Source of the DNA: Anaeramoeba ignava BMAN | Lineage: Eukaryota > Protista > Anaeramoebae | Assembly: GCA_028826165.1 (NCBI GenBank) | Contig: JAPDFW010000086.1 | Span: 1-64,000, forward strand | Length of the DNA stretch: 64,000 nucleotides | Direction: 5' to 3' | Part shown: one piece after another, positions 3,469 through 57,220 of the stretch | Position numbering within the stretch: the stretch's first letter is position 1 | How the letters are laid out: the number at the start of each line of letters is the position of its first letter | Notes under the pieces: generated by a model | What the model was told of the DNA's origin: nothing | Database searches by the model: none | Seen by the model: only the letters and a program-made list of their open reading frames with translations | Made by a program: the position numbers and the translations under genes

Positions 3469-3513
3469 TTCCAATTTCCCAATTTTCGAAATTCCAATTT
3501 CTTTTTTCTTCTC

Positions 3514-3544
<31 letters not shown>

Positions 3545-4158: not shown

Positions 4159-4278
4159 GGATTCAACACTAAGTTTTCGCTGGCGGTTCCCCATCCAACT
4201 AACTCACTTAGCTCTCAATCATTTATCTTCAGGGTTCGGAATGTGTCCTGGAGTATTTGATTGGATATGGCCGAATCC
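4159..4278 (-). rRNA. 5S rRNA (copy 2)
   Basis: Identical by inspection to 19-138, followed by a longer oligo-T run on the minus strand. Confidence 0.92.
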
Positions 4279-15100: not shown

Positions 15101-16529
15101 TTTGATTTTAATTTTGATTTTAATTTTAATATTAATGTTAATTTTAATTTTAATTTTAATTTTAATTTTAATTTTAATTTAAATATCAACCTAATAAATC
15201 AAATCCTCCTTGATTAAATGATAATTGAATATCTTTTTCAACAATTTCACGATTCTTATTGTTGATAACTCCACCTAATCCATCTAAAAATCCAATAATT
15301 TTGCTTTCAGGATTTAATTTCTTGAAAAAATGGAAAACCCCAACAATTACATTATGACCTCCTGGTGCTGGGCCTCCACTAAAAACAACTCCAACCTTTT
15401 TTTAATTTTAATTTTAATTTTAATTTTAATTTCAATTTTAATTTTAATTTCAATTTTATTTTTAATTTTAATTTTAATTTTAATTTTAATTTTAATTTTA
15501 ATTTTAATTTTAATTTTAATTTTAATTTTAATTTTAATATTAATTTTAATTTTAATTTTAATTTAAATATTAATTTTAATTTTAAATTTAATTTTAATTT
15601 GAATTTTATATTTAATTTTAATTTTAATTTACTTTGAATGGTCTTTGAGTTTCAAATTTTTCAGCTTCAACAATATGTGCAACTTTTCTTCCAAAAGATT
15701 TTGGGAATTGCTTTTGGATTTGTTCTATTTTAATTTGAAATAAATATAAATTGAAATATAAATGAATTTGAATTGATATTGAATTTGAATTTTAAATTGA
15801 ATTTGAATTTGAAATTGAATTTGAATTTGAAATTGAAATTGGTATTGAATTTGAATTTGAATTTGAATTTGAATTTGAAATTGAATTTGAATTTGAATTT
15901 GAATTTGAAATTGAATTGATATTGAATTTGAATTTGAAATTGAATTTGAATTTGAAATAGAAATTGAAATTGAATTTGAATTTGAAATTGAATTTGAATT
16001 TGAAATTGAATTTGAATTTGAATTTGAAATTGAAATTTAAATTGAAATAGAAATTGAATTTGAAATTGATATTGAATTTGAAATTGATATTGAAATTGAA
16101 TTTGAATTTGAAATTGAATTTGAATTTGAATTTGAATTTGAATTTGAATTTGAAATTGAATTTGAAATTGATATTGAAATTGATATTGAATTTGAAATTG
16201 AAATTGAATTTGAATTTGAATTTGAAATTGAATTTGAATTTGAATTTGAAATTGAATTTGAAATTGAATTTGAATTTGAATTTGAATTTGAAATTGATAT
16301 TGAAATAGAAATTGAATTTTGTTATAATTATTATTTAATTTTTGTTTAGATTTGACTATTCAAAAAAAAAAAAAAAGAAAAACAAACCTATATCACCAGC
16401 AGCAGAAGTTTCTTCACCAAATTCAATTTTGGTAGGTTTATCAAATAAAAGAGAATCTGGAATCTCTGGTTTATATTGTAATCTTTCTTTTTGAAGAAGA
16501 CTATAATGATTTGGTATTTCAAAATCCAT
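12117..16529 (-). CDS. PFP: Pyrophosphate-dependent phosphofructokinase (long type), 6 exons
   Basis: Exons 16529-16388, 15724-15633, 15395-15191, 14751-14525, 14004-13414, 12526-12117. Motifs FSGGPAPGGHNV, GGDD, PKTIDGD, GFDT, MGRSSSHIALE, GYEGRC. One A appears to be missing from a homopolymer at ~14604-14608. Confidence 0.93.
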
Positions 16530-21522: not shown

Positions 21523-24273
<2,751 letters not shown>

Positions 24274-25275: not shown

Positions 25276-25645
25276 ACTTAGATCTCCTTTTTTCCCTTTT
25301 TTTTCTCTTTTTTTTCTTTTTTTTCTCTTTTTTTTTTGTTCAAAGATCCTTATTAATTTGATCTCTTTATTTTTTATTTTTAAAATTAAAATTTCTTGTT
25401 AAAAGAATTTTTATTTACTAAAATAATTTAAAATAGTTTTATTAAATAGAGGGGACTAAAAAAAAAACTAAAAAAAAAATAAATTAAAATTTTTTTTTGT
25501 TTTTTAATTTTTTTTTTCATTTTTTTTTTCCACTTTTTTTATTTTCAATTTTCTTATAATTTTTATTCAATTTTTTTTTTGATTTAAATTAATTTTAAAA
25601 AAAAAATATTTTTTGTAAAAAAAAAAATAATCAAAAATAAAAACA

Positions 25646-28600
25646 ATGGGTGCTTGTTCAACAAAAGAGATCAAAGAAACAGAAAGTGTGGATTTTGTGG
25701 GAATGAATTTAAATCGAATTCCACAAACAATCCATCAATTTAACAAAGTGCACTCTTTAAACTTATCTGCAAACAACATTAAAACAATACCGACAAAATT
25801 TGTGAAAAAAAACACATTACAACATGTTTATTGGAGTCGGAACCAACTTACAAAAGTCCCAGAAAAGCTCTTCAAACTGAGTAATTTGGAAATTGTCGAT
25901 CTTAGTATGAATAAGATTAGCAAAATCCCAACCAAATTTTCCAAGCTTCAAAAACTCATTGTTCTTGATCTTCATGCAAATTCAATTCATTTTCTTCCCG
26001 AAAAATTATTTTCAAAATTAAAGGCTCTCAAGTCACTTAATTTGGACAGAAATCTACTGACAAAATTCCCATCTTCACTTGGGTCACTTAATAATTTGCA
26101 AGAATTGCATTTATCCGGCAACGGAATTGCGAAAATTTTTGACAACTTTTCAAAATTTCCCAATTTGAGAATTCTCAACTTGTCAAATAACTTGATAACC
26201 GCGTTCTTTGTTGAGAACGCCGCAAAGCATCTTACAAATCTCACAACGCTCGAGCTGGCACAAAACCAGCTTGAGGAGATTCCTGAGTCAATCGCATATT
26301 TCCACGAATTGAAAACATTCAATGCGGATGAGAACCAGATTTTCTTGGTTCATCCCTTTATCGGCAAGCTTCCAAAACTTGCCGTTATTAACCTTTCCCG
26401 CAACAAATTATCTACTCTTGAGATCATAGGCAACGCGCTCAAACACTCACTAATTGATATCAATCTTAGTCATAATCAATTTGAGCAAATTCCCGATAGT
26501 GTGAGTTCTTTTGAATCTTTGAAGTCTCTTTCCATGCGCGGAAATCGAATTGTTCGCTTTAATATACGTTCCCATAATTTACAAGTGCTTGATCTTTCCC
26601 AGAACAGAATCTCCACTTTTAATTCGCAATCCCTGGATTCTTTACAGAACTTAAACATTCTTAATTTAAATGAGAACCTTTTGGCTTCAATTCCTATTCA
26701 AATTTCTCAGTTGTCAAATCTGACCGTTTTGAATTTGAGCAAAAATTTCATTCGGAAATTACCTGATAGCTTTGTCTCGCTCGTAAATCTTGCTGAGCTT
26801 GATTTGTCTCAAAACAAACTGTCGAAATTACCTGACAATTTTGGTTCTCTTTCTTCACTTACTAAGCTTCTTCTTAACGAAAACAATCTCCGGAAACTAC
26901 CAGTGTCTTTTGGTTCAATGGAGAATTTGTGTGTTTTGAATCTGTCCCGAAATCGTTTCCAGCATTTTCCTGAAGTTCTCGCAAATCTTCGCAATCTTGA
27001 AATTCTACAAATCATCACACTGTTTTTTGCGTATTATTCCTAGCTTCATTTCACGGCTTTCTGCATTAGTAGAGCTCAACGCAAGTAATAACAACATATA
27101 TGCAATTGCTCCTGAAATTCATCATTTACGATCATTATCTCTGATCAATTTAAGTGGGAATAAAATTGCAATTTTGCCAAGTGAATTTTTCCGACTCAAT
27201 TCATCTCATTCTCATTCTCATTCTCATTCTCATTCACATTCACATTCACATTCACATTCACATTCACACAAAAATCGGCATCAAACCTTTCTTGCAAATC
27301 ACCAAGAAACGTTAAAAATTGATTTTTCTGGGAATCGTTTAAGAAATTTTGCACCACAATGGTTCACCATGACGAGTCTTCAAGAACTTGATCTTTCTCA
27401 TAATTCCATCAAGAATTTTCCGAGCGATTCTTTTGAAAAGCTTGAGAGATTGGAGGTTCTTAAGCTTTCTTATAACTTTTCTTCTCAAATTTCACTTCCA
27501 GGACTGAAGCATCTTCAATTCTTAGAATTTTTACAACTTGAAGGAAACCAACTTTCATCTGATTTTCTTGAGGAGATTTCCTCACTTTTTTCAACTTCTC
27601 GCGATGTGAATTTATCTTTGGATAGATTTGATGAGCCCATGTATTTCCCTTCTTTATGTGAAATGATGGTTGATCCTGAACCTTCCATTTCCCAAACAGA
27701 TACAACAAGAATCCGTTGTAATTCATCTCGTTTTCGTATTGCATATTCTGAAATGCGTGGACAACGACCCACTATGGAAAATAGTATTGATGTTCGCACT
27801 CGTCTTTCAAATTGTCCAAATGCAGATCTTATTGCTATTTATGATGGTCATGCTGGTCGTGTTTGTGCTGATCGTGCTGCTTTGCATCTTTCTACTCTTT
27901 TAGAGAATCGTTTGATGGAAATGTTTCCTGAGCTTCAATTCCAACAACAATCAAATTCAAATTCAAATTCAAATTCAAATTCAAATTCAAACATTTCAAA
28001 TTATTCAAAAATTCATTTTACTCCTGATTCAATTTATCTCAATCAAAATGAATATCAAAATCAGAATCAAAATCAAAATCAAAATCAAAATCATTTTAAA
28101 AGATATTCAGTTTCTTTAAATCAAAATGAATATTTAAATGATTTACAAAGATATTCAATTTATCAGAATCAGAATCAAAATCAAAATCATTTCAAAAGAT
28201 ATTCAGTTTCTTTAAATCAAAATCAGAATCAAAATCAATATCAAAATTTTAAAAGATATTCCAATTTTCTCAATGAAAATCAAAATCAAAATCAAAATCA
28301 AAATCAAAATCAAAATCAAAATCAAAATCAAAATATAAATCAAAATCAAAATATAAATCAAAATATAAATCAAAATCAAAATTTAAATCAAAATCAAAAT
28401 CAAAATTTAAATCAAAATATAAATTTAAATCAAAATATAAATTTGTATCAAGATTCAGTTTACTATTGCGAACATCCAAATTATTATAATTTTCAAAATA
28501 TAAATCAAAATCAAAATCAAAATCAAAAAGAAAAAGAAAAAGAAAAAGAAAAATTCAAAAAAATCCAAAAAAAAATCCAAAAAAAAATATTCAAAAAAAC

Positions 28601-29923
28601 CCAAAAAAAACTTTCAAAGAAATACAATCCATTTAAAAAAAGATCATTACAACCTCCAAAACAAACCACCACAACTAAAAAACATACACAAAACAATATC
28701 ATCAATTTTCCACGAATTCAACAACACACTTTTAAAATCAAAAACAGAAAGTGGAGCGACAGCAATAATTTGCCTTTTGATACAACAACATTATTACATA
28801 ATAACAATGGGAAATTCACGAGCAATTGTATCAAGAAGAGGGGAATCAGTTGAAATTTCTCGATCTACAAAACCAGAAGACAAAAAAGAACATGAAAGAA
28901 TAAGGAAACTTGGCGGATTAGTAACACGAAACGGATTGATAAATGGAGCAATTGGAGTTTCTCGTGGATTCGGATATTTTAGCTATCATCCGTTCGTTAT
29001 TTGCGAACCAATCATCACTCGATCAAGAATAGAAGCTGATGATTCTCATCTTATTATCGCAACAGAAGGTGTCTGGCAAGTAATTTCTCCTCAAGAAGCT
29101 GTCGGCTTCACTTCTTCTATTAAAGACCCTTATCGTTCTTCTTTATTTATAAGAAATTTGGCTTATTCTCGAGGAGCCACTCATAATATTTCTGTTGTTG
29201 TTGTCGATTTAAATCCTAAAGAAACTGATAGAGCTTTTCTTAAAAATCAAATTTCTATTCAAGAAAAAGAAAGAAATGATTTCATTTTGTCTCAAAGAGA
29301 AATTCTTGCTGATTTTGTTGAAAAATCAAAAACTAAAAAAGCTCAACAAATCAAAAGAAAAATCAATAATCAACCAAAATTAAAAAATATTTTCAATTCA
29401 AGAATAATTTCAAAATCAAAATCCAATTTCAATTACAATTCTTTTTACAATTACAACCACAACACAATTTCCAATTCAAATTCTTTCTCTTTTTCATTTT
29501 CAAATTCTAATTCAAATTCAGTTTCAAAATCAAAATCAAAATCAAAATCAAAATCAAAACAAAACCAAAAATTTAAAAAAGAAAATTCAAAAAAACCAAA
29601 AAAGTTCAAGAATTTTAACACACTTTCAAATTTACATCAACAAAATGCATTTGAATTTTCAACAGAAACAACTTTAGAAGAAGATAGTTCAAATTATTCA
29701 CATCAAAAAATGACAAAATTCCCACCTTTAAAAATTGAAAATAATCAAAATCAAAATCAAAATTTAAATCAAAATCAAAATCAAAAGTGATTCTGAAAAT
29801 ATTAATGATTTTTTGGATTTATTTGTTGAAAACAAAAATAATTTAAATTTTAATTTAGATTCTGATAAAACTCTTACTCTTAATGATTCTTCCGATTTGG
29901 AACAAAATTTGGATCATAATTGA
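25646..29923 (+). CDS. LRR + PP2C-like protein (PHLPP/Cyr1-like architecture), probably N-myristoylated; split by apparent frameshifts
   Basis: MGACSTK start and more than 20 LRRs, followed by PP2C-like motifs RGQRPTMEN, YDGHAG, SGATA, GNSRA, VSRGFG, IATEGVW, ATHNISVVVV. Frameshifts at ~27012, within 28505-28680, and ~29785. Confidence 0.82.
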
Positions 29924-30078: not shown

Positions 30079-31294
30079 ATGGATCTTCCTGAACTTCGTT
30101 CAATTAATGATTTTGGAGATTTAGCTGAAATTGGACAAGGAACATATGGAGTTGTTTTTCGAGTACAATTTATCCAAAAAAAATATTTATTTAATTCATT
30201 TCAAAATAATTCAATTTAAATTTCCAAATCAAAAAAAAATTAAAAAAAAAATTTATCCGAATTTCAATTACCCAAAAAAATATTCGAAAAATTCAATTAA
30301 AAAATATTGGAATCAATTGGAAAAAATACTTGAAATATTCTATTTAAAAAAAAATCAAATGTATAAAAAAAAGGCAAAAGATCTCAAAACAAAAGAAATT
30401 GTTGCACTTAAAAAAGTGAAAATGGGAGAAAAAGAAAAAGAAGGATTTCCAATAACAACATTACGAGAATACAGAATCCTAAAAAAAATCAAGCATCGTA
30501 ATATAATCAATCTACACGAAATAGTTTGCGGGGATGAAGTGGATGAATTTTATCTAGTTTTTGATTTTTGTCCGCATGATCTTTCTCGACTTTTAGCAAC
30601 AATGACAACAAAGCATTCCCCATTTACAGTTTCAGAAATCAAATCATTGATGATACAGCTCCTGAACGCAGTAGCATATGCGCATGAGAACCATGTTATT
30701 CATAGGGATATTAAGTTGTCAAATCTTCTATTCAATGATCAAGGCGAACTGAAGTTATGTGATTTCGGACTTTCAAGAGAAATAGATAACTCCACAGAGG
30801 CCATGACTCCTATTGTGCAATCTCTTTGGTACCGCGCTCCAGAGGTTCTTCTCGGAGAGACTCATTACACAGAAAAGATTGATATGTGGTCTGTTGGGTG
30901 TATAATGGGGGAATTGATCCAAAATCAACCTCTTTTTCAAGGATTAAGTGAACTCGACCAACTGAGTAAGATATTTAAAGTTCTTGGTACGCCTTCTGTT
31001 AAGTTATGGCCTAAATATCCAGATCTTCCGGGCGTTAAGATGTTTCAGTTGCCTCAATATGAATATAATGAACTCCAAAAATTGTTCCCTTTTCTTTCTT
31101 CTGATGGATTGGATATTTTGAATAGAATGTTAACTTATGATTTTGAAAAGAGAATTTCTGCAAAAGATGCTTTGTTACATCCTTATTGGTCTCAATCTCC
31201 TCTTCCAAAAGATGTTCAAATGATTCGTACTTTTCCTTCTTCTTTTCGTCCTATTAATAAAAAATCTCATTTTCATTTTAGTAATCAAAAATAA
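30079..31294 (+). CDS. Cyclin-dependent kinase, CDK10/CDK11 family
   Basis: Exon 1 30079-30162 (IGQGTYGVVFR), intron 30163-30373, then EKEGFPITTLRE (PITSLRE-like), HRDIK, DFGL, SLWYRAPEVLLG. Confidence 0.92.
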
Positions 31295-31321: not shown

Positions 31322-34300
31322 TTGAAAAGAAAGAAAATCGGATAAAATTTAATTTAATAATTTTATATAAAATTGAATAAAATTAAATTTAATAAATTTA
31401 TATAAAATTAATTTAATTTTAATTTTAAATTAAAAAGAAAGAAAATTGGATAAAATTTAATTTAATAAATTTAAATAAAATTAATTTAATTTTGATTTTA
31501 AATTTAAAAAGAAAGAAAATTGGATAAAAAATTTAATTTAATAAATTTATATAAATTTAATTTAATTCAAATTTTAAATTAAAAAGAAAGGAAATCGGAT
31601 AAAATTTAATTTAATAAATTTATATAAAATTAATTTAAATTTAATTTTAAATTGAAAAGAAAGGAAATCGGATAAAATTTAATTTAATAAATTTAAATAA
31701 AATTAATTTAAATTTTGATTTTAAATTTAAAAAGAAAGAAAATCGGATAAAATTTAAATAAAATTAATTTAATAAATTTAAATAAAATTAATTTAATTTT
31801 GATTTTAAATTAAAAAGAAAGAAAATCGGATAAAAAATTTAATTTAATAAATTTATATAAAATTAATTTAAATTTTGATTTTAAATTAAAAAGAAAGAAA
31901 ATCGGATAAAAATTTATATAAAATTAATTTAATTTTAATTTTAAATTAAAAAGAAAGAAAATTGGATAAAATTTAATTTAATAAATTTAAATAAAATTAA
32001 TTTAAATTTTGATTTTAAATTAAAAGAAAGAAAATTGGATAAAAATTAATTTAATAAATTTAAATAAAATTAATTTAATTTTGATTTTAAATTAAAAAAG
32101 AAAGGAAATCGGATAAAATTTAATTTAATAAATTTATTTAAAATTTATTTAATTTTGATTTTAAATTAAAAAAGAAAGGAAATCGGATAAAATTTAATTT
32201 AATAAATTTATTTAAAATTTATTTAAAATTAATTTAAATTTGATTTTAAATTTGATTTTAAATTTAAAAAGAAAGAAAATTGGATAAAATTTAATTTAAT
32301 AAATTTATATAAAATTAATTTAAATTTTGATTTTAAATTTAAAAAGAAAGAAAATTGGATAAAATTTAATTTAATAAATTTATTTAAAATTAATTTAATT
32401 TTGATTTTAAATTTAAAAAGAAAGGAAATCGGATAAAATTTTATTTAATAAATTTATATAAAATTAATTTAAATTTTGATTTTAAATTTAAAAAGAAAGG
32501 AAATCGGATAAAATTTAATTTAATAAATTAATATAAAATTAATTTAAATTTTGATTTTAAATTTAAAAAGAAAGGAAATCAGATAAAATTTAATTTAATA
32601 AATTAATATAAAATTAATTTAATTTTGATTTTAAATTTGAAAAGAAAGAAAATCGGATAAAAAATTTAATTTAATAAATTTATATAAAATTAATTTAAAT
32701 TTGATTTTAAATTAAAAAGAAAGAAAATCGGATAAAAAATTTAATTTAATAAATTTAAATAAATTAATTTAAATTTTGATTTTAAATTAAAAAGAAAGGA
32801 AATCGGATAAAATTTAATTTAATAAAATTAAATAAAATTAATTTAAATTTGATTTTAAATTAAAAAGAAAGAAAATTGGATAAAATTTAATTTAATAAAT
32901 TTAAATAAAATAAATTTAATTTTGATTTTAAATTAAAAAGAAAGGAAATCGGATAAAATTTAATTTAATAAATTTATATAAAATTAATTTAATTTTGATT
33001 TTAAATTGAAAAGAAAGGAAATAGGATAAAATTTAATTTAATAAATTTAAATAAAATTAATTTAAATTTTGATTTTAAATTAAAAAGAAAGAAAATCGGA
33101 TAAAAAATTTAATTTAATAAATTTAAATAAATTAATTTAAATTTTGATTTTAAATTAAAAAGAAAGGAAATCGGATAAAATTTAATTTAATAAATTTAAA
33201 TAAAATTAATTTAAATTTTGATTTTAAATTGAAAAGAAAGGAAATCGGATAAAATTTAATTTAATAAATTTATATAAAATTAATTTAATTTTAATTTTAA
33301 ATTTAAAAAGAAAGAAAATTGGATAAAATTTAATTTAATAATTTTATATAAAATTAATTTAAATTTGATTTTAAATTGAAAAGAAAGAAAATTGGATAAA
33401 AATTTAATTTAATAAATTTAAATAAAATTAATTTAAATTTTGATTTTAAATTAAAAAGAAAGAAAATTGGATAAAATTTAATTTAATAAATTTATATAAA
33501 ATTAATTTAATTTTGATTTTAAATTTAAAAAGAAAGAAAATTGGATAAAATTTAATTTAATAAAATTATATAAAATTAATTTAATTTTGATTTTAAATTT
33601 AAAAGAAAGAAAATCGGATAAAATTTAATTTAATAAATTTTATATAAAATTAATTTAAATTTTATTTTAATTTGAAAAGAAAGAAAATCGGATAAAATTA
33701 AATAAAATTAATTTAATTTTGATTTTAAATTGAAAAGAAAGGAAATTGGATAAATTTTAATTTAATAAAATTAAATAAAATTAATTTAAATTTAATTTTA
33801 AATTAAAAAGAAAGAAAATTGGATAAAATTTAATTTAATAAATTTAAATAAAATTAATTTAAATTTTGATTTTAAATTGAAAAGAAAGAAAATTGGATAA
33901 AATTTTAAATAAAATTAATTTAAATTTTGATTTTAAATTAAAAAGAAAGAAAATTGGATAAAATTTAATTTAATAAATTTATATAAAATTAATTTAAATT
34001 TGATTTTAAATTTAAAAGAAAGAAAATTGGATAAAATTTAATTTAATAAATTTATATAAAATTAATTTAAATTTTGATTTTAAATTTAAAAAGAAAGAAA
34101 ATTGGATAAAAATTTATATAAAATTAATTTAATAAATTTAAATAAAATTAATTTTAATTTTGATTTTAAATTTAAAAAGAAAGAAAATCGGATAAAATTT
34201 AATTTAAAAAAATTTATATAAAATTAATTTTAATTTTGATTTTAAATTGAAAAGAAAGGAAATTGGATAAAAATTTAATTTAATAAATTTAAATAAAATT

Positions 34301-34508
34301 AATTTAAATTTTGATTTTAAATTGAAAAGAAAGAAAATCGGATAAAATTTTATTTAATAAATTTATTTAAAATTAATTTAATTTTGATTTTAAATTTAAA
34401 AAGAAAGAAAATTGGATAAAATTTAATTTAATAAATTTATATAAAATTAATTTTAATTTTGATTTTAAATTGAAAAGAAAGAAAATCGGATAAAAATTTG
34501 ATTTTAAA
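31322..34508. repeat. Minisatellite array, ~73-bp unit, 43 copies counted
   Basis: Unit is approximately AAAAGAAAG(A/G)AAAT(C/T)GGATAAAATTTAATTTAATAAATTTA(T/A)ATAAAATTAATTTAAATTTTGATTTTAAATT. Copies differ by point changes and small indels, with no unique spacers. Confidence 0.95.
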
Positions 34509-35080: not shown

Positions 35081-38000
35081 ATGTTAAATCCAAATTTAAA
35101 TCCAAATTCAAATCCAAAAAAAAAGTAAAAAAAAAAAGTAAAAAAAAAATTAAAAATAAAAAATTAATCTTAAAAATTTAAAAAAGAAATTCAAAGAACA
35201 AATTTAAATCAAAATCACAACCAAATCCTCAATCATTTCTAAATTCAAATCCTAAATTAACCTCTTTAAAATCTGTTTCCTTTTCTCTTTCTCTTTCTCA
35301 AGAAAATTTATTTAACAAAAAAGAAGAACAAAAAGAATTGAAATTTGATTCGTTGAAAACTCCACAAATTTCACAGAAATTTACAAAAATCCATCCAAAA
35401 AATCATGAGAATCATTTTTCTGATTTATTCCATATTTTTTCAAAAAAAAATCAAATTGAAATTGAAAGAGATGGAAAAGATCTCGATTTTTCAGATTATC
35501 GAAATATTTTTGAAGAGGATTCTGATTTAGATCAAGAATATCAAAAAAATAGGAATAATAAAAACAATAAAAACAATAAAAACAAGACAAATCAAATTTC
35601 AAATGAATCAAATGATTCAAATCAAAATATTACATTAATGAAATATTGGAATTTAAATGATGTAAATGATTCCATTCATAATTTTCAATTATTCAAAAAT
35701 CCAAAATCAAAATCAAAATCAAAATCAAAATCAAAATCAAAATTAAATCAATCAAATCAATTAAATCAATTAAATGAAAAAAGTGGTTTATTTTCAAATT
35801 TAAATCAATCAAATCAATTAAATCAATTAAATCAAAAAAGTGGTTTATTTTCAAATTTAAATCAATCAAATGATTCAATTCAATTAAATGAAAAAAGTGG
35901 TTTATTTTCAAATTTAAATCAATTAAATCAATTAAATCAAAAAAGTGGTTTATTTTCAAATCCAAATCAATCAAATGATTCAATTCAAGATTTCCAAATA
36001 TTTAGAAATTTAAATGAATCAAATCCAAATGAATCAAATAATTCAAATCAATTAAATCCAAAAAGTGGTTTATTTTCAAATCCAAATCAATCAAATGATT
36101 CAATTCAATTAAATCAAAAAAGTGGTTTATTTTCAAATCCAAATCAATCAATTCAATTAAATGAAAAAAGTGGTTTATTTTCAAATTTAAATTCATTTTT
36201 AAATTCAAATTCAAATGAATCAAATCCAAATCAATCAAATAATTCAAATCAATTAAATAAAAAAAGTTGTTTATTTTCAAATCTAAATCAATTAAATCAA
36301 TTAAATGAAAAAAGTGGTTTATTTTCAAATTTAAATCAATCAAATCAATTAAATCAATTAAATAAAAAAAGTGGTTTATTTTCAAATTTAAATCAATCAA
36401 ATGATTCAATTCAATTAAATGAAAAAAGTGGTTTATTTTCAAATCCAAATCAATCAAATGATTCAATTCAATTAAATCCAAAAAATGGTTTATTTTCAAA
36501 TTTAAATCAATCAAATGATTCAATTCAATTAAATCAAAAAAGTGGTTTATTTTCAAATCCAAATCAATCAAATGATTCAATTCAAGATTTCCAAATATTT
36601 AAAAATTTAAATGAATCAAATTCAAATGAATCAAATCCAAATCAATCAAATAATTCAATTCAATTAAATCAAAAAAGTGGTTTATTTTCAAATCCAAATC
36701 AATCAAATCAATCAATTCAATTAAATCAAAAAAGTGGTTTATTTTCAAATCCAAATCAATCAAATCAATTCAAAAATGAAAAAAGTGGTTTATTTTCAAA
36801 TCCAAATCAATCAAATCAATTAAATGAAAAAAATGGTTTATTTTCAAATTTAAATCAATCAAATGATTCAATTCAATTAAATGAAAAAAGTGGTTTATTT
36901 TCAAATCCAAATCAATTAAATGATTCAATTCAAGATTTCCAAATATTTAGAAATTCAAAACCAAAACCAAAACCAAAACCAAAACCAAAATCAAAATCAA
37001 AATCAAAATCAAAATCAAAATCAAAATTAAATCAATCAAATCAATTAAATCAATTAAATAAAAAAAGTGGTTTATTTTCAAATTTAAATCAATTAAATCA
37101 ATTAAATGAAAAAAGTGGTTTATTTTCAAATTTAAATTCAAATCAAACAAATGAAAAAAGTGGTTTATTTTCAAATTTAAATCAATCAAATCAATTAAAT
37201 AAAAAAAGTGGTTTATTTTCAAATTTAAATCAATCAAATCAATTAAATGAAAAAAGTGGTTTATTTTCAAATTTAAATCAATCAAATGATTCAATTCAAT
37301 TAAATAAAAAAAGTGGTTTATTTTCAAATCCAAATCAATTAAATCAATCAATTCAATTAAATCCAAAAAGTGGTTTATTTTCAAATTTAAATCAATTAAA
37401 TGATTCAATTCAATTAAATCAAAAAAGTGGTTTATTTTCAAATTTAAATCAATCAAATGATTCAATTCAAGATTTCCAAATATTTAAAAATTTAAATGAA
37501 TCAAATTCAAATGAATCAAATCCAAATCAATCAAATAATTCAATTCAATTAAATAAAAAAAGTGGTTTATTTTCAAATCCAAATGAATCAAATGATTCAA
37601 TTCAATTAGATCAAAAAAGTGGTTTATTTTCAAATTTAAATCAATCAAATGATTCAATTCAAGATATTCAAATATTTAAAAATTCAAAATCAAATTCAAA
37701 ATCAAATTCAAAATCAAAATCTAAAATAAACTCAAAATCAAAATCAAAATCAAAATCAAAATCAAAATCAAAACCAAAATCAAAATCTAAAATAAATTCA
37801 AAATCAAAATCAAAACCAAAACCAAAACCAAAATCAAAGCCAAAATCAAAACCAAAATCAAAATCAAAATCAAAATCAAAATCAAAACCAAAACCAAAAT
37901 CAAAATCAAAGCAAAATGATTCAATTTTTAAAAATTCAAATGATTCAATTCAAGATATTCAAATATTCCAAAATTTAAATTCAAAACAAAATGATTCAAT

Positions 38001-39024
38001 TTTTAATATAAATGCAAATGATTCAATTCAAGATATTCAAATATTTAAAAATTTAAATTCAAAATCAAAATCAAAATCAAAATCAAAACCAAAATCAAAA
38101 TCAAAATCAAAATCAAAATCAAAATCAAAATCAAAATCAAATTCAAAGCAAAATGATTCAATTTTTAATATAAATGCAAATGATTCAATTCAAGATATTC
38201 AAATATTTAAAAATTTAAATTCAAAACAAAATGATTCAATTTTTAATATAAATGCAAATGATTCAATTCAAGATATTCAAATATTTAAAAATTCAAATCT
38301 AAAAAAAAAACCAAAACAAATCAATTTATCTAAATTGAAATTTGAAATTGTAGAAAATGGAATTCAAACAAATCAAAAAGAAAAAGAAAAAGAAAAAAAA
38401 CAAAAATTTGAAATTATTGAGGATATAAAATCATTTGAACAAAAAAAAGAACCGAAAAAAACAAAAGAAAAAAACCTAAAAATTGGATCAATAAGAAAAA
38501 TCACAATGTCTACAACAACAAGAAGAAGAAGAAGAATGCTTCAAAGAAGAATTGCCCAAAAAAGTGGAACAGGAAAAATTTCACAAAAAAAAACAGAAGG
38601 AACTGTAAATTCATATGATCTAAGAAAATCTCATTTGAGACAATTTTACGAAAGAAATACAGGAATAAAAGTTCCAGAAAATCAACATGTTGCTCATTAT
38701 GTGGGTTTGGAAGTTATTGCATTTTCAATGAATAAATTAAAATCCTTTTGGACTGAAGAAGAAATCAAACAAGCACACAAAATTGCAAATCAATTATCTA
38801 ATTTAACAACTGAAGATCGTGCTCAAAATCTTGGACCAGATAGACAATTTGATACTAAATTGAAAAAGATTATTTTAGGCAAACAAATCTCTACAATTTC
38901 CAATTTTGAAAAAGAAAGAATGGAAGTAATTCTTAAACATGCAAAAGAAAGTAAAATGGATCAAACAGATTGGGGAAAAATTATAATTAAAGCTTTGGAA
39001 GAATTTATCAAAAAAATGAATTAA
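35081..39024 (+). CDS. N/Q/S-rich GLFS-repeat protein with SK/KP tracts and a C-terminal HNH-like (His-Me finger) domain
   Basis: Frame is open 35182-39024. The likely ATG at 35081 needs homopolymer correction. 27 GLFS plus 1 CLFS repeats. C-terminal QHVAHYVGLEV...ANQLSNLTTEDRAQNLGPD. Confidence 0.7.
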
Positions 39025-42759: not shown

Positions 42760-45700
42760 TTAAATTTGGAATGTATGAGTAAAATCAAATTTAATTGTTG
42801 GAATAACAGTTGCAATAAACCTATTTTTTTAATAATTTTTTTAATAATTTTTTTCCACAAACAAGAAAAGAAGTAAAAATTTTTTTTAAATTAAATTTAC
42901 TTAAGAAAGATTATCAAATAAAAAGCAGGTGACATTTCTTTTCCATTTTCTTTCATTTGATTGATCATTAATTTCATAATTTGAGCATGTTTGCAAGGAT
43001 GAATTGAAGCTTGTTTAGTTCCTAAATGAGGATGAGGATCAAATGTAACAGTTTTTCCTGAATGTTCTGCGCTAATATCTTGAAATATTTCTTGTTTTGT
43101 TAAAGGTTTTCCATTCTATTAAAATTATTTATTTATTCATTTAAAAGAAATTTATATTTATTTATATTTTTTTTCTTCAAAAAGATTTATAAAAATTTTT
43201 TTCAACCTCATTATATCCAGATAAGAAGACTCTTGGAGTTGAGTAGTATTGATCATAAACAATTGAAATATCGTAAGTTCTTGCTTGGAGGATTAAGTCT
43301 TGACTTAATTCAGCCTTTAATTTTAATTTAATTTTAATTTGAATTTTAATTTTAATTTGAATTTTAATTTTTTTAATTTTAATTTTAATTTTAATTTTAA
43401 TTTTAATTTTAATTTTAATTTTAATTTTAATTTTAATTTGAATTTTAATATTTTTAATTTTAAATTTTAATTTTAATATTCATTTTTAATTTTAATTTTA
43501 ATTTTAATATTAATTTTAATTTTAATTTTAATTTTAATTTTAATTTTAATTTTAATTTTAATTTTAATTTTAATTTTAATTTTAATTTTAATTTTTTAAT
43601 TTTAATTTTAATTTTAATTTTAATTTTAATATTAATTTTAATTTTATTTTCAAAATGAATTTTTAATTTTAATTTTAATTTTAATTTTAATTTTAATTTT
43701 AATTTTTAATTTTAATTTTAATATTAATTTTTAATTTTAATTTTTTAATTTTAATTTTAATTTTTTAATTTTAATTTTAATTTTAATTTTAATTTTAATT
43801 TTAATTTTAATTTTAATTTTTTATTTTTTTTAATTTTAATTTTAATTTTAATTTTAATTTTAATTTTAATAGTAATTTTAATATTCATTTTTTTAATTTT
43901 ATTTAATTTTCATTTTAAATTTTAAATTTTAATATTAATTTTAATTTTAATTTTAATTTTAATTTTAATTTTTATTTTTAATTTTTAATTTTTAATTTTT
44001 AATATTAATTTTTAATTTTTAATTTTAATTCATTTAATTTTTTAATTTTAATTTTTAATTTTAATTTTAATTTTAATTTTAATTTTTAATTTTTAATTTT
44101 TAATTTTAATTTTAATTTTAATTTTAATTTTAATTTTAATTTTAAATTTTTAATTTTAATTTTAATTTTCATTTTTAATTTTAATTTTAATTTTAATTTT
44201 AATTTTAATTTTAATTTTAATATTAATTTTAATTTTAATTTTAATTTTAATTTTAATTTTAATTTTAATTTTAATTTTAATTTTTAATATTAAATTTGAT
44301 TTTTAATATTCATTTTTAATTTTTAATTTTAATTTTGAATTTTGATTTTTTAATTTTAATATTAAATTTGAATTTTTAATATTAATTTTTAATTTTAATT
44401 TTAATTTTAATTTTAATTTTAATTTTAATTTTAATTTTTAATTTTAAATTTTAATTTTAATTTTAATTTTTTAAAAATGAATTTAATTTTATAAATGAAT
44501 TTTAATTTTAATTTTAATATTAAATTTAATTTTAATATTAATTTTAATTTTAATATTCATTTTAATTTTCGTTTCAAATTTTAAATTTTATAAATGAATT
44601 TTAAATTAATTAAAAGTTTGTAAATCTACATCATCTTTTGTTTGAATTAAAATATCATCATCAAAATCTTCTGCTTCAGGAATATCAGAATCAGATTCAG
44701 CTTCAGATTGTGATTCAGATTTTATTTCTGGTTTAGTATTTTTTGATTCATCAACAATTACTTCATCATCTTGAACTAAATAATAAATAATAAATAATAA
44801 ATAATAAATAATAAATAATAAATAATAAATAATAAATAATAAATAATAAATAATAAATAATAAATAATAAATAATACTTTTTGAAAAATCAGGTGAAACC
44901 CAATCATCTTCTAATAGGTTTTCAACACACATATTAACTAAATCAATTGCTCTTTTTGTACTTGGAATTTTTTCTGTAAGAAGAAATTGTTTATCTTCTG
45001 GAAGATATGATTTACTCAAACCTGGTTTAGCAGGTTGCCTATTATTTTAATATTAATTTTAATTTAAATTTTAAATTTCGAAATGAATTTTCATTTGAAT
45101 TTTAAATTTCGAAATGAATTTTAATATTAATTTTAATTTTAAATTTAATTTTCGAAATGAATTTTGATTTGAATATTAATATTAAATTTAAATTTAATTT
45201 TAATTTTAATTTTAATTTTAATTTTAATTTTGATTTTAATTTTAATTTTAAATTTCGAAATGAATTTTGATTTGAATTTTAAATTTCGAAATGAATTTTA
45301 ATATGAATTTTAATATTAATTTTAATTTTAAATTTAATTTTCGAAATGAATTTTGATTTGAATATTAATATTAATTTTGATTTTAATTTTAATTTTAATT
45401 AATTTTAATATGAATTTTAATTTTCGAAATGGATTTTGATTTGAATATTAATATTAATATTAATTTTAATTTTAATATTAATTTTAATTTTAATTTTAAT
45501 ATTAATTTTAATTTTAATATGAATTTTGATTTTAATTTAATTTTAATTTTAATTTTAAAATGAATTTTAATTTTAATTTTAATATTAATTTTAATTTAAT
45601 TTTAATTTTAATTTTTAATTAAATTTTAATTTTAAATTTTAATTTTAATAATTCTAAATTTAATTTTAATTTTCATTTTAATTTTAATTAATTTTAATTT

Positions 45701-50538: not shown

Positions 50539-50766
50539 TTTTAATTTTATTTTTAATTTTAATTTTAATTTTATTTTTAATTTTAATTTTAATTTTAATT
50601 TTAATTTTAATTTTAAATAAAAAAGGAGAAGAAAAAAGAAGAAAAAAAATGAAATTTTTTATTTTAAAATTTTTTTTTAATTTTAATTTGGAAAAGAAAA
50701 AAAAGCAAAAAAAAATTTTTTTTTTCCTTTTTCATTTTTTTCAATTTTTTAAAAAGAAAAGAGAAG

Positions 50767-53700
50767 ATGAATATTTTAAATAATATAATTGGAAGTTTTT
50801 TTAAAACAGTTGCATATTCTAAATTACCCAAAATAGAAGGGAAAATAAAAACTGATAAATTATCATCACCAGTTGAAATCAAAAGAGATAAATATGGAGT
50901 TCCTCATATTTACGCTAAAAATATAAATGATTTACTCTTTGCTCAAGGTTATGTTCATTCTCAAGATAGATATTTCCAAATGGAATTAGTAAGAAGAATT
51001 ATTTCTGGAACTGCTTCTTCAGTTCTTGGTTATGATCCTGATCTTTTATTATCAGATATGTTCTTTAGAAGTTGTCAATTTTATAAACTTGCTGAACAAG
51101 AATATAAAAGTTCTTCTTTAGAATTGAGGAAATTAATTCAAAGTTATTGTGATGGAATTAATTTTTATTTGAGTGAATGTTATAAATCAAATTCATTTTC
51201 TTTTGAAATTTCATTATTGAAAATTAAACCAAGAAATTGGGATTTTCTTGATGTTGCTGCTGTTATGAGATTTATTGGAGCTGAAATGACTTATGATGTT
51301 TTTCGTAAACTTTATCTTGCTCAATTATCTCAACAATTAGGAATTGAAAAAACAATGGAATTTTGTAATGCTCCAATTAATAAACCAACAGTTGTTGAAA
51401 ATGGAATTGAAGTTAATGATGTTATTGAAAAAGTTATCTCAAATACAATGGAAAATGTTAAAACTATTCATAAAACCAAAAAGAAAATTACAGGAGGATT
51501 TGCTGGATCAAATTGTTTTGCTATTTCAGGAAAATATACCGAATCAGGAAAACCATTTCTTTGTTCTGATCCACATTTAGAATTAAGAATTCCTTCATTT
51601 TTTTATGAAAATCATCTTATTTCAAAAGATGGATATGATTTATATGGATATTCTATTGCTGGAGCTCCTTATATTTTGATTGTAAAAAATCAAAATTTAA
51701 ATTAAAATTAAAATTAAAATTAAAATCAAAATTAAAATTAAAATTAAAATTCAAATCAAATTTAAAATTAAAATTAAAATCAAAATAAAAATTAAAATTA
51801 AAATTAAAATCAAAATTAAAATTAAAATTAAAACCAAAATCAAAATTAAAATTAAAATTAAAATTAAAATTAAAATTAAAATTAAAATTAAAATTAAAAT
51901 TAAAATTAAAATTAAAATTAAAATTAAAATTAAAATCAAAATTAAAATTAAAATTAAAATTAAAAATCAAAAATTAAATAAAGGGATTTAATGGTACGTT
52001 TAGTTGGGGAATTACTTTAGGAATGGCAGATTCAGAAGATGCTTATTTAGAAAAAATTAAAGGAGATGAATATCTTTATAAAAATGAATGGAAAAAATTA
52101 GAAAGTTATCGAGAAACAATCCAAATCAAAGATCATCCAGATCGTATATTTAATATTCTTAAAACAAGACATGGCCCACTTATTTCAACTTTTTATGATT
52201 CAAAATTAAATTTAAATCAACTTGAAAATCAAAATCAAAATCAAAATCAAAATCAAAATCAAAATCAAAATCAAAATCAAAATCAAAATGAAAATCAAAA
52301 TCAAAATGATGAAATCCAATATCATATTTCTTTCCAATCAATTATTTTTCAACATTATTCTGGAAAATCATTAGTTAATGCATTATATCTAGTTTCTCAA
52401 GCAAAAACTTATGAAGAATTTTCTTCTGTAGTTGATAATTGTTATTATGGATCATTTAATTTTACATTTGCAGATAATAATGGGAATATTGGATATTATT
52501 TATCAGGAAAATATCCAATAAGAAATGAAAAGTGGATAAAACAATTTATACTTCCAGGATGGACAGGAGAATATGAATGGGAAGAAATGATTCCATTTGA
52601 GAAAAATCCACATTCACTCAATCCTAAACAAGGATATGTTGTTTCAACAAACAATAATCCAGGAAAAACAGAATATTATATTGGAACTAATTTTGATAAT
52701 TATCGAGCAGAAAGATTAAATTATTTAATTCAAACATTTATTGATTCAGGCAAAAAATTCAAATATCAAGATTTAATGAAAATTCAAACTGATATCAAAA
52801 CATTTTCAGGAAGAGATATTTCTTTAGCAATCCAAAATCAATTTGAAGAAGTTCTTAAATCACATGATAATAAAAAGATTTCAGAATTATATGATATTCT
52901 TAAAAAATGGAATTATGACATGGATATCAAATCTGTTGGAGCAACAATCTATTTTCTATTCATAATAAAATTTTTTGAAGTTGTTATTAAAGAACAAGTA
53001 AAAGATTATCATTTATCAAAATTCTTAATTGGATCAAACTGCAATACTTTAATAAGAGGAGACGAGCCCGAATCTTTAACTTATCCAAGCTTTATTCTTT
53101 CAACAATTACAAATCCAAAATGTAAATGGATTGAAGATTGTGGAGGATTAAATGAAGTTATTAAAACAATATTTGAAAAAATTTATGAATTTGGAAAAGA
53201 ATATTTCAAAAGTGAAAATATTGAAGAATGGGAATATGGAAAACTTCATATAATTCAACTGGATCATGCATTCTCTGCAGAGTCAAAGATATTTAATTCT
53301 TTTAATATTGGTATAATAATATTAAAATCAAAATTAAAATTAAAATCAAAATCAAAATTAAAATCAAAATTAAAATTAAAATCAAAATTAAAATTAAAAT
53401 CAAAAAAATTAAAATTAAAATTAAAATTAAAATTAAAATTAAAATCAAAATCAAAATTAAAATCAAAATAAAAATCAAAATTAAAAATGAAAAGGACCAT
53501 TACCTATTTTTGGATGTGGAACTACAATTAATCTTCAAACATATCATCCATCATATGAAAATTTTTATAAATCATCTGTAGGTCCTGTTATGAGAATGAT
53601 ATTTGATTTAGGACAACCAGAAGATTCATTTGGAGTAATTTGTACAGGAAATAGTGAAAATGTTACAAGTGAATTTTATGATAATCAATTTAAATTATGG

Positions 53701-53781
53701 TATGAATTAAAATATCATCCATTATTAATGAAAGAAGATGATATTTTAGAAAAAGAAAAATATCGATTAATTTTACTTTAA
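50767..53781 (+). CDS. Penicillin acylase / peptidase S45 family Ntn-hydrolase (copy 1), 3 exons
   Basis: RDKYGVPHIYA...FAQGYVHSQDRYFQME; GSNCFAISGKYTESGKPFLCSDPHL; TRHGPLI; NFTFADNNGNIGY; GPVMRMIFDL. Introns 51682-51983 and 53311-53494. Confidence 0.92.
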
Positions 53782-53990
53782 AATTCAATTCAATTCTTTT
53801 TTAATTCTTTTTCAATTCTTTTTCTTTTCAATTTTAATTCAAAAACTTCAAACGAAAATACATCAAACAACTTTCTCTTGATTGAGAATAAATTTGAAAA
53901 AGAAAAAGAAGCAAAAAAAATTTTTTCTCAATTAAAATTTTTCATTTTTCATTTTTCATTTTTTTCAATTTTTTAAAAAGAAAAGCAAAG

Positions 53991-56900
53991 ATGAATATTT
54001 TAAATAATATAATTGGAGGTTTTTTTAAAACAGTTGCATATTCTAAATTACCCAAAATAGAAGGGAAAATAGAAACTGATAAATTATCATCACCAGTTGA
54101 AATCAAAAGAGATAAATATGGAGTTCCTCATATTTACGCTAAAAATATAAATGATTTACTCTTTGCTCAAGGTTATGTTCATTCTCAAGATAGATATTTC
54201 CAAATGGAATTAGTAAGAAGAATTATTTCTGGAACTGCTTCTTCTGTTCTTGGTTATGATCCTGATCTTTTATTATCAGATATGTTCTTTAGAAGTTGTC
54301 AATTTTATAAACTTGCTGAACAAGAATATAAAAGTTCTTCTTTAGAATTGAGGAAATTAATTCAAAGTTATTGTGATGGAATTAATTTTTATTTGAGTGA
54401 ATGTTATAAATCAAATTCATTTTCTTTTGAAATTTCATTATTGAAAATTAAACCAAGAGATTGGGATTTTCTTGATGTTTCTGCTGTTACAAGATTTATT
54501 GGAGCTGAAATGACTTATGGTGTTTTTCGTAAACTTTATCTTGCTCAATTATCTCAACAATTAGGAATTGAAAAAACAATGGAATTTTGTAATGCTCCAA
54601 TTAATAAACCAACAGTTGTTGAAAATGGAATTGAAGTTAATGATGTTATTGAAAAAGTTATCTCAAATACAATGGAAAATGTTAAAACTATTCATAAAAC
54701 CAAAAAGAAAATTACAGGAGGATTTGCTGGATCAAATTGTTTTGCTATTTCAGGAAAATATACCGAATCAGGAAAACCATTTCTTTGTTCTGATCCACAT
54801 TTAGAATTAAGAATTCCTTCATTTTTTTATGAAAATCATCTTATTTCAAAAGATGGATATGATTTATATGGATATTCTATTGCTGGAGCTCCTTATATTT
54901 TGATTGTAAAAAATCAAAATTAAAATTAAAATTAAAATCAAAATTAAAATTAAAATTAAAATCAAAATTAAAATCAAAATTAAAATTAAAATTCAAATTA
55001 AAATTAAAATTAAAATCAAAATTAAAATTAAAATTAAAATTAAAATTAAAATTAAAATTAAAATTAAAATTAAAATTAAAATTAAAATTAAAATTAAAAT
55101 TAAAATTCAAATTAAAATCAAAATTAAAATCAAAATTAAAATTAAAATTAAAATTAAAATAAAATTAAAATTAAAATTAAAATCAAAATTAAAAATAAAA
55201 TCAAAATAAAAATTAAAATTAAAATTAAAATTAAAATCAAAATTAAAATCAAAATTAAAAATAAAATTAAAATTAAAATTAAAATCAAAATCAAAATCAA
55301 AATCAAAATTAAAATTCAAATCAAAATTAAATTAAAATTAAAATTAAAATCAAAATCAAATAAAGGGATTTAATGGTACATTTAGTTGGGGAATTACTTT
55401 AGGAATGGCAGATTCAGAAGATGCTTATTTAGAAAAAATTAAAGGAGATGAATATCTTTATAAAAATGAATGGAAAAAATTAGAAAGTTATCGAGAAACA
55501 ATTCAAATCAAAGATCATCCAGATCGTATATTTAATATTCTTAAAACAAGACATGGCCCACTTATTTCAACTTTTTATGATTCAAAATTAAATTTAAATC
55601 AACTTGAAAATCAAAATCAACTTGAAAATCAAAATGAAAATCAAAATCAAAATGAAAATCAAAATGAAAATGAAAATGATGAAATCCAATATCATATTTC
55701 TTTCCAATCAATTCTTTTTCAACATTATTCTGGAAAATCATTAGTTAATGCATTATATCTAGTTTCTCAAGCAAAAACTTATGAAGAATTTTCTTCTTTA
55801 GTTGATAATTGTTATTGTGGATCATTTAATTTTACATTTGCAGATAATAATGGAAATATTGGATATTATTTATCAGGAAAATATCCAATAAGAAATGAAA
55901 AGTGGATAAAACAATTTATACTTCCAGGATGGACAGGAGAATATGAATGGGAAGAAATGATTCCATTTGAAAAAAATCCACATTCACTCAATCCTAAACA
56001 AGGATATGTTGTTTCAACAAACAATAATCCAGGAAAAACAGAATATTATATTGGAACTAATTTTGATAATTATCGAGCAGAAAGATTAAATTATTTAATT
56101 CAAACATTTATTGATTCAGGCAAAAAATTCAAATATCAAGATTTAATGAAAATTCAAACTGATATCAAAACATTTTCAGGAAGAGATATTTCTTTAGCAA
56201 TTCAAAATCAATTTGAAGAAGTTCTTAAATCACACGATAATAAAAAGATTTCAGAATTATATGATATTTTTAAAAAATGGAATTATGATATGGATATCAA
56301 ATCTGTTGGAGCAACAATCTATTTTCTATTTGAAATGAAATTTTTTGAAGTTGTTATTAAAGAACAAGTAAAAGATTATCATTTATCAAAATTCTTAATT
56401 GGATCAAACTGCAATACTTTAATAAGAGGAATTACACAAGATTTTCTAACTTATCAAAGCTTTATTCTTTCAACAATTACAAATCCAAAATGTAAATGGA
56501 TTGAAGATTGTGGAGGATTAAATGAAGTTACTAAAACAATATTTGAAAAAATTTATGAATTTGGAAAAGAATATTTCAAAAGTGAAAATATTGAAGAATG
56601 GGAATATGGAAAACTTCATATAATCCAAATGGATCATCCATTTTCTCAGAAATTAAAGATATTTAATTCTTTTAACATTGGTATAATAATATTAAAATTC
56701 AAAATTAAAATTAAAATTAAAATAAAATCAAAATTAAAATCAAAATTAAAATTAAAATCAAAATTAAAATTAAAATTAAAATCAAAATTAAAATTAAAAT
56801 CAAAATTAAAATTAAAATTAAAATTAAAATTAAAATTAAAATCAAAATTAAAATCAAAATTAAAATTAAAATCAAAATTAAAATTAAAATTAAAAGGAAA

Positions 56901-57220
56901 ATCAAAATTAAAATTAAAATTGGAACTAAAATTAAAATTAAAATCATTTCATCCATCAAATGAAAAAATTAAAATAAATCATAAAATAAAATTAAAAATA
57001 AAAATTAAATAAAAAATTTAAAAATTAAAACAACCAGAAAATAAAATTAAAATCAAAAGTAATTTAAAAATAAAATTAAAAAAAATGAAAAATCAAAATG
57101 TTAAAAATCAAAATTTATGATAATCAATTTAAATTATGGTATGAATTAAAAATATCATCCATTATTAATGAAAGAAGATGATATTTTAGAAAGAAAAATA
57201 TCGATTAAATTTTACTTTAA
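53991..57220 (+). CDS. Penicillin acylase S45 (copy 2); last exon garbled (pseudogene or assembly artefact)
   Basis: Near-identical to copy 1 through exon 2 (intron 54906-55365, donor at 56681). Exon 3 is recognisable only as fragments within AAAATT repeat (56897-57115) plus an indel-containing tail. Confidence 0.8.

What the first reader, a model, noticed from the sequence alone, without database searches (positions are those of the whole stretch)
35081..39024. Nucleoporin-like GLFS/NQ low-complexity protein capped by a putative HNH nuclease domain
Seen: roughly 1,000 aa of repeats, with 27 (K)SGLFSN motifs in N/Q/S spacers, DSIQD(F/I)QIF motifs and basic SK/KP tracts. These are followed by an Arg-rich NLS-like segment (TRRRRR) and a ~170-aa unique domain (38506-39021) containing H-V-A-H-Y-V-G-L...N-x3-N-L-x7-N. 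Known: GLFG repeats in N/Q spacers drive Nup98-type condensation, and the beta-beta-alpha-Me consensus is approximately (D/x)H(I/V)xP...NxxxNL...N. Inference: a condensate- or pore-targeted nuclease, an architecture I do not recognise. The match rests on motif spacing only.
Basis: partly seen in the sequence, partly recalled or inferred. Interest (0 to 1): 0.72.

Follow-up and report, generated by a model that had tools for sequence, protein, structure and literature searches.

The report
Repeat-armed toxin-type nuclease in a protist
In an AT-rich single-celled eukaryote, about 860 codons of simple repeats run in frame into a small domain that is likely a DNA-cutting enzyme distantly related to bacterial GH-E toxins; the repeats only loosely resemble nuclear-pore proteins, and a pore or condensate role is untested.

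Summary
The observation mostly holds. An open frame of 1280 codons (35182-39024) carries 27 GLFSN motifs, 9 DSIQD[FI]QIF motifs, SK/KP tracts, TRRRRR and a 172-aa end domain. The ATG at 35081 joins it only through a predicted 62-nt intron, giving 1293 aa. No homolog was found. The end domain is probably a His-Me finger: Atlas features point to DUF1524/GH-E clusters, a GH-E subtype profile scores 13.5 bits (1 of 10,000 shuffles), and a GmrSD_C profile scores 9.7 bits (10 of 10,000). H64, G67, E103 and N108 match invariant GH-E columns. Against this, the broader GH-E profile is not significant (798 of 10,000), Pfam finds nothing, and the single-sequence model has no strands. It is not a Nup98-type domain: no FG, one motif per 22 aa, 14% charged. 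Published GLFG-to-GLFS mutants still form selective phases, so condensation is not excluded. The repeat DNA is nearly uniform, and neighbouring enzymes carry similar N/Q/S/K tracts. Best reading: a divergent, likely intracellular GH-E-like nuclease on a disordered arm expanded by DNA slippage. Expression and splicing are untested. New variant of a known kind.

The parts
35081..35124 (+). Predicted first exon (ATG plus 14 codons); no hydrophobic signal-peptide stretch
   Evidence: predicted
35125..35186 (+). Predicted 62-nt A-rich GT..AG intron
   Evidence: the only join found near the start that gives one open frame; the neighbouring kinase gene has a predicted A-rich intron with the same AAG acceptor; no RNA evidence
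35187..35700 (+). Non-repetitive charged N-terminal region, ending in a diverged copy of the DSIQDFQIF motif (35668-35694)
   Evidence: 0 stops against 10 and 20 in the other frames; GC 0.31/0.21/0.14 by codon position; no family over its cut-off
35785..37632 (+). GLFS block: 28 [GC]LFS motifs in 616 aa of N/S/L/Q/K spacers
   Evidence: 57-bp and 114-bp tandem periods
35977..38286 (+). Nine DSIQD[FI]QIF motifs interspersed with and following the GLFS block
35701..38136 (+). Five basic (SK/PK)n tracts: 35701-35742, 36955-37026, 37732-37791, 37798-37911, 38059-38136
   Evidence: the same hexamer repeat occurs elsewhere in the window
38293..38505 (+). K/E-rich linker
   Evidence: 0 stops against 6 and 5
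38518..38535 (+). TRRRRR, NLS-like or nucleic-acid-binding (inferred)
   Evidence: function untested
38644..38853 (+). Likely His-Me finger core, GH-E-like: NTG 38656, H64 38695 (general base), G67 38704, N99 38800, E103 38812, N108 38827 (metal ligand), D112 38839 and D116 38851 (+4 and +8 candidate ligands); roles inferred; numbering from 38506
38854..39024 (+). Predicted C-terminal helices and stop codon
   Evidence: low confidence, mean pLDDT 55.6

Best explanation
The locus likely encodes one 1293-aa protein in which a predicted disordered N/S/K/Q/L repeat arm carries a C-terminal domain that is likely a metal-dependent His-Me finger nuclease of the GH-E/GmrSD kind. Shown: the open frame, the motifs, and the register of H64, G67, E103 and N108 with GH-E columns. 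Inferred chemistry: N108 with D112 or D116 binds one divalent ion, and H64 activates water to cut a phosphodiester bond, probably without sequence specificity. Inferred cell biology: there is no signal peptide and there are basic clusters at both ends, so it would act inside the cell, most likely in the nucleus, with the SK/PK tracts as non-specific nucleic-acid tethers. The arm grew by recent DNA slippage, as other genes here carry N/Q/S/K tracts. It works as a flexible, possibly sticky tether and not as a nuclear-pore barrier domain. Descent from a bacterial conflict nuclease is inferred from likeness only.
For: Atlas features: DUF1524-named cluster 0.93 with 172 shared features, GmrSD_C 0.92 (16% of members), GH-E 0.89 (76%), AHH 0.83; 10 of the 10 best family-bearing hits share a family or clan (searches count as one source). 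A profile of 25 ED-subtype GH-E sequences without the query gives 13.5 bits, 1 of 10,000 shuffles; a GmrSD_C profile of 22 gives 9.7 bits, 10 of 10,000. H64, G67, E103 and N108 are invariant with 43 GH-E proteins. The alignment-guided model has a strand ending at the His, a helical insert, a second strand and a helix. In its fold search 16 of 50 rows are HNH-type nucleases by title or by my knowledge, among them EndoVII (Z 3.4, rmsd 4.1, 69 aligned) and BrxU (Z 3.2, rmsd 5.2, 82 aligned). Acids at +4 and +8 from the Asn match the superfamily description (PMC5714182). Coding signal holds in all five segments. The repeat cores are nearly uniform: 15 of 252 codon cells differ, 14 of them non-synonymous. 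SK, SN, SH and NQ tracts lie in the reading frames of the PP2C, LRR and penicillin-amidase genes.
Against: No homolog was found: two word-index searches, and a full search of 1.84 billion proteins gave 3 hits, all repeat-inflated. Pfam, PHROGs, NCBIfam and PADLOC give no HNH family. The profile of all 120 GH-E hits is not significant (3.2 bits, 798 of 10,000). The subtype was chosen after I had seen the shared ED, and the 120 came from a search whose alignment held the query. hhalign gives probability 3.7%, P 0.011 against GH-E and nothing in register against GmrSD_C. Against the window's 223 ORFs the subtype profile ranks this domain first by only 7.2 to 5.6 bits, and the GmrSD profile ranks it second. 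The single-sequence model is all-helical, with no HNH row among 50. The guided model is shaped by its GH-E alignment (mean pLDDT 61, all Z under 4; Foldseek finds nothing at E 0.001 or better). The GH-E tail N-x-S-H-x-[YF]-E is not kept. In-frame splice pairs that would remove the repeats exist.
Confidence: 0.5

Rival explanations
1. The GLFS block is a natural FG-less counterpart of a Nup98 domain. It condenses or partitions into the pore phase and places the nuclease at the pore or in a nuclear body.
For: The block is 616 aa, in the Nup98 range of 500-700. GLFG-to-GLFS repeats kept a selective phase and transport-receptor entry in vitro (10.1101/2022.10.14.512266). Units hold 4.5 F/L/I residues on average, and 18 of 22 short units have net charge 0 or above.
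Against: 4.55 motifs per 100 aa against about 8; 14% charged residues against strong depletion. In that paper longer spacers weakened condensation and one Asp per repeat abolished it. No FG and no nucleoporin Pfam domain. No substitution signal of selection on the motif.
Confidence: 0.15
2. The nuclease-like domain is a short gene (start at 38506, or spliced to the first exons), and most of the repeat is intron or intergenic minisatellite that happens to stay open.
For: 159 in-frame GT..AG pairs of 1 kb or more exist, among them 35125 to 38495 and 35662 to 38421. The kinase intron has the same base make-up (A 0.54 against 0.51) and one open frame of 70 codons. An ATG sits at 38506.
Against: 1,106 codons before 38506 have no stop while the other frames have 5-58 per segment. 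Codon-position GC is strongly periodic in the repeat (0.26/0.28/0.01) but flat in the kinase intron (0.16/0.10/0.17) and the upstream array. 27 of 27 spacings are in frame.
Confidence: 0.15
3. The domain has the His-Me fold but is catalytically dead and serves only to bind DNA or RNA, as in other His-Me domains recruited by eukaryotes.
For: Gly before the His is Ala, and the His three residues after the Asn is missing. Inactive eukaryotic cases are described: Smad MH1 (PMC5714182) and teneurin GHH (PMC3482391).
Against: Those cases lost the catalytic His; here His, Glu, Asn and two downstream Asp are present.
Confidence: 0.12
4. The end domain is not a His-Me finger, and the motif match is chance in an orphan helical domain.
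For: All-helical single-sequence model; no library hit; broad GH-E profile not significant; the loose pattern H-x2-G...E-x4-N occurs in 112 of 10,000 shuffles.
Against: Atlas features and two separately built family profiles agree on the same helix register. The fuller pattern with NTG, found in 22 of 120 GH-E hits, occurs in 0 of 10,000 shuffles (pattern drawn up after the fact).
Confidence: 0.08

Closest known systems
GH-E (Tox-GH-E, PF14410) His-Me finger toxin domains, ED subtype
   Same: NTG before the His strand, H-x2-G-x-E, a helical insert, E-D-x3-N; H, G, E and N invariant in the joint alignment
   Different: Ala for the Gly of GH; three more residues between His and Glu (38 against 35 in 114 of 119 matched family members); tail lacks S-H-x-[YF]-E; extra C-terminal helices; eukaryotic host, whereas the 2017 table lists 0 eukaryotic GH-E members; no secretion, RHS or immunity context in the window
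GmrSD_C / DUF1524 (PF07510) HNH domain
   Same: Helix leading into N-L-x7-N with the same spacing; 9.7 bits, 10 of 10,000 shuffles; top named Atlas clusters
   Different: No EH[IV]xP before the insert; no GmrS domain; hhalign finds no in-register match
Nup98/Nup100/Nup116 GLFG domains
   Same: GLF-x motifs in N/Q/S-rich spacers over about 600 aa
   Different: GLFS not GLFG; one motif per 22 aa; Lys before each motif; 14% charged; no nucleoporin Pfam domain; a nuclease-like end (paper passages)
Eukaryotic recruits of bacterial HNH toxin domains (CIDE/DFF40, teneurin GHH)
   Same: Proposed route: a conflict nuclease taken into a eukaryotic protein (PMC3482391 passages)
   Different: Different HNH clade; here one gene with no known relatives, so transfer is untested

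Membership tests
His-Me finger superfamily | Catalytic His at the end of strand 1 | tested here: met
   H64 aligns with the invariant GH-E His and ends a strand in the guided model
His-Me finger superfamily | Asn or His at the start of the helix, with a polar residue at +4 or +8 | tested here: met
   N108, D112, D116; definition from PMC5714182
His-Me finger superfamily | Beta-beta-alpha fold | tested here: inconclusive
   seen in the GH-E-guided model (pLDDT 61; 16 of 50 rows HNH-type, Z 2.7-3.4) but not in the single-sequence model
His-Me finger superfamily | Metal-dependent nuclease activity | not testable with these tools
   needs an assay
GH-E (PF14410) | GH dipeptide (PMC3482391: 'GH, E, N, E') | tested here: not met
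   AH here; Gly is near-invariant in the family alignment
GH-E (PF14410) | Conserved E and N (E-x4-N) | tested here: met
   E103 and N108 invariant
GH-E (PF14410) | Terminal H-x-[YF]-E after the Asn | tested here: not met
   no His; F115-D116 may stand in two residues later
GH-E (PF14410) | Score over the Pfam cut-off | tested here: not met
   not listed at E up to 10
GH-E (PF14410) | Polymorphic-toxin context (secretion or RHS domains, immunity gene) | tested here: not met
   neighbours are a protein kinase and major vault protein
EndoG/NucA (PF01223) | Profile match with DRGH motif | tested here: not met
   0.7 bits, 1,722 of 10,000 shuffles
Nup98-type GLFG nucleoporin | FG/GLFG motifs | tested here: not met
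   0 FG in 1280 aa
Nup98-type GLFG nucleoporin | About one motif per 12 residues, strong charge depletion | tested here: not met
   one per 22; 14% charged
Nup98-type GLFG nucleoporin | Nucleoporin anchor or autoproteolytic domain (feature recalled) | tested here: not met
   no such Pfam family on the 1280-aa frame at E up to 0.1
Nup98-type GLFG nucleoporin | Forms a selective phase; sits at the pore | not testable with these tools
   needs phase assay and localisation

The most novel reading that the evidence does not exclude
A protist took a bacterial GH-E toxin nuclease and built in front of it a natural GLFS (FG-less) Nup98-like sticker array, making a nuclease that partitions into the nuclear-pore phase or its own condensate, for example to destroy incoming foreign DNA. 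It would be a natural counterpart of the engineered GLFS phase and a eukaryotic GH-E-like enzyme.
Probability: 0.12. Interest if true: 0.85.

Novelty: new variant of a known kind. Interest (0 to 1): 0.45.

Why it matters
The 2017 classification lists GH-E only in bacteria and archaea (PMC5714182 Table 1), so an active GH-E-like domain in a protist would be one more toxin nuclease taken up by a eukaryote, in an architecture my searches did not find. The GLFS array is a ready natural test of the in vitro result that FG is dispensable for a selective phase. Interest is limited: it is one gene with no relatives, the fold call is remote, and repeat expansion is routine in this genome.

Tried and rejected
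No whole genome is held, so paralogs outside the window were not searched; inside it tblastn finds none. Homolog searches were blank or gave repeat-inflated hits. Five genomes searched with the domain gave 0 of 5. Phage and plasmid tblastn gave best E 0.1 and 0.3; the Bordetella phage hit runs through a stop and lacks the second half of the motif, so it was rejected. Degenerate motif scans gave 6 viral, 12 metagenome and 14 genome loci; I read all 32 and none looked like a relative, and tblastn of the domain hit none of them. EndoG/NucA was considered from recalled spacing and rejected. Foldseek on the guided model had no match at E 0.001 or better in PDB or BFVD. No solved GH-E relative was found by sequence. 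Expression: no RNA holder listed; no reads were laid, so transcription and splicing are open. Four look-ups of earlier findings returned nothing. The organism was not established. A recalled guess (Anaeramoeba-like composition) led to passage searches in PMC10710043 ('HNH' 0 times) and PMC11550330 ('nuclease' 0 times); this neither confirms the guess nor bears on the gene. Paper searches for a eukaryotic GH-E and for an HNH nuclease with FG-like or condensate repeats listed no such case among 20 of 807 and 15 of 54 papers shown; I saw listings only.

Full report
Setting. The window is 7-38% GC per kilobase and eukaryotic. The locus lies between a protein kinase gene and a major vault protein gene, and a predicted intron restores the kinase's reading frame. 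No whole genome is held. The organism was not established.

Observation. One frame is open from 35182 to 39024, 1280 codons. It holds 27 GLFSN, 9 DSIQD[FI]QIF and no FG. The ATG at 35081 meets a stop at codon 16; a 62-nt GT..AG intron at 35125-35186 is the only join found near the start and gives 1293 aa. The repeat region is about 860 codons.

Is the repeat coding? The five segments have 0 stops in frame and 5-58 in each other frame. GC by codon position is periodic in all of them, and flat in the kinase intron and the upstream 73-bp array. Motif spacings are multiples of three in 27 of 27 cases, against 13 of 40 in the upstream array; the copies are not independent, so this is not a probability. 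Against: the kinase intron has the same base make-up and one open frame of 70 codons, and 159 in-frame GT..AG pairs could remove 1 kb or more. No RNA holder was listed and no reads were laid, so splicing is open.

Relatives of the end domain. None was found. The search of 1.84 billion representatives gave 3 hits, all tandem-repeat proteins with inflated scores. Pfam, PHROGs, NCBIfam and PADLOC gave no HNH family. All 32 loci from motif scans were read and rejected.

Fold. The Atlas feature search put an unnamed eukaryotic cluster first (0.93; 57 members), then GmrSD_C, DUF1524 and GH-E clusters; among named clusters the order was DUF1524 0.93, GmrSD_C 0.92, GH-E 0.89, AHH 0.83. I collected family members to test this. 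A GmrSD_C profile (22 sequences) scores the domain at 9.7 bits, reached by 10 of 10,000 shuffles; an EndoG/NucA profile (17) at 0.7 bits, 1,722 of 10,000. The profile of the 120 listed GH-E hits (of 206 found) gives 3.2 bits, 798 of 10,000; its ED subtype (25 distinct sequences of 28, chosen after I saw the shared ED) gives 13.5 bits, 1 of 10,000. H64, G67, E103 and N108 are invariant with 43 GH-E proteins, and NTG precedes the His in both. hhalign gives the same register with P 0.011 but probability 3.7%. The single-sequence model is all-helical (pLDDT 55.6) and finds no HNH row among 50. The GH-E-guided model shows strand, helical insert, strand, helix (pLDDT 61.0), and 16 of the 50 rows of its fold search are HNH-type nucleases by title or by my knowledge, at Z 2.7-3.4. 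That shows compatibility, not independent proof. I put the His-Me fold at about 0.85-0.9.

Chemistry (inferred). The superfamily paper places the general-base His on strand 1, the metal-binding Asn at the start of the helix and a further ligand at +4 or +8 (PMC5714182; parts 2 and 3 of 9 and passages read). Here these are H64, N108, D112 and D116. GH-E is described as having a NucA-like site without the flanking sheets (PMC3113570, passages), with motif 'GH, E, N, E' (PMC3482391, passages). The domain has AH and lacks the His after the Asn, so I file it as GH-E-like, not as a member.

The arm. The GLFS block is 616 aa with 4.55 motifs per 100 residues and 14% charged residues. Nup98 domains have about eight per 100 and are charge-depleted; longer spacers weaken condensation and one Asp per repeat abolishes it; yet GLFG-to-GLFS keeps a selective phase (bioRxiv 10.1101/2022.10.14.512266; parts 2 and 3 of 7 and passages read; supplements not seen, and its Supp. 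Table 1 on natural GLFS frequency may bear on this). So it is not a Nup98-type domain, but stickiness is not excluded. The cores are nearly identical as DNA: 15 of 252 codon cells differ, 14 non-synonymous and 1 synonymous (cells, not events). One older DSI copy differs by three synonymous and three replacement changes. This fits recent slippage from a coding seed and shows no selection on the motif. SK, SN, SH and NQ tracts also lie in the frames of the PP2C, LRR and penicillin-amidase genes.

How it most likely works. A likely intracellular, probably nuclear, non-specific metal-dependent nuclease is held to nucleic acid by basic tracts on a long disordered arm (0.5). Rivals: pore or condensate targeting by GLFS (0.15); a short gene with non-coding repeats (0.15); a dead nucleic-acid-binding His-Me domain (0.12); a chance motif (0.08).

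Novelty. New variant of a known kind. The 2017 table lists no eukaryotic GH-E, and two paper searches listed no such architecture among the rows shown (listings only). With one gene, no relatives and no expression data, interest is 0.45.

Noticed in passing
window 31369-34495: Non-coding AT-rich tandem array, 73-74 bp period, about 42 copies, 8% GC, 140-150 stops per frame, directly upstream of the gene.
   Followed up: partly
window 30079-31294 (+): CDK-type protein kinase gene with a predicted 211-nt A-rich intron (30163-30373) that ends in AAG with no pyrimidine tract and is open in one frame.
   Followed up: partly
window 39220 to about 42400 (-): Major vault protein gene with a T-rich repetitive intron of about 600 nt.
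   Followed up: partly
window 50668-57012 (+): Two tandem penicillin amidase (PF01804) genes, each split over frames and carrying an NQ tract; a mostly bacterial family by my recall, so a possible lateral transfer.
   Followed up: no
window 679-11345: Three long ORFs (911-972 aa) with FG-GAP repeats and fibronectin III domains, an integrin-alpha-like set-up.
   Followed up: no
window 25631-29790 (+): Leucine-rich repeats followed by a PP2C domain, spread over three overlapping frames around SH and NQ tracts; introns or assembly frameshifts.
   Followed up: no
window 12117-15178 (-), 22539-23120 (-), 43177-43479 (-), 58891-60512 (-): Exon pieces that read like a pyrophosphate-dependent phosphofructokinase, a STE20-type kinase, an ATG3-like protein and a Brix-domain protein, among long hexamer-repeat introns; names recalled from motifs, not searched.
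   Followed up: no
ESM Atlas, rank 1: An unnamed all-eukaryote cluster (57 members, 139 aa) is the top feature match (0.93) and 24 of 30 hits are clusters without a common family; they may be an undescribed eukaryotic His-Me family. Members could not be fetched.
   Followed up: no
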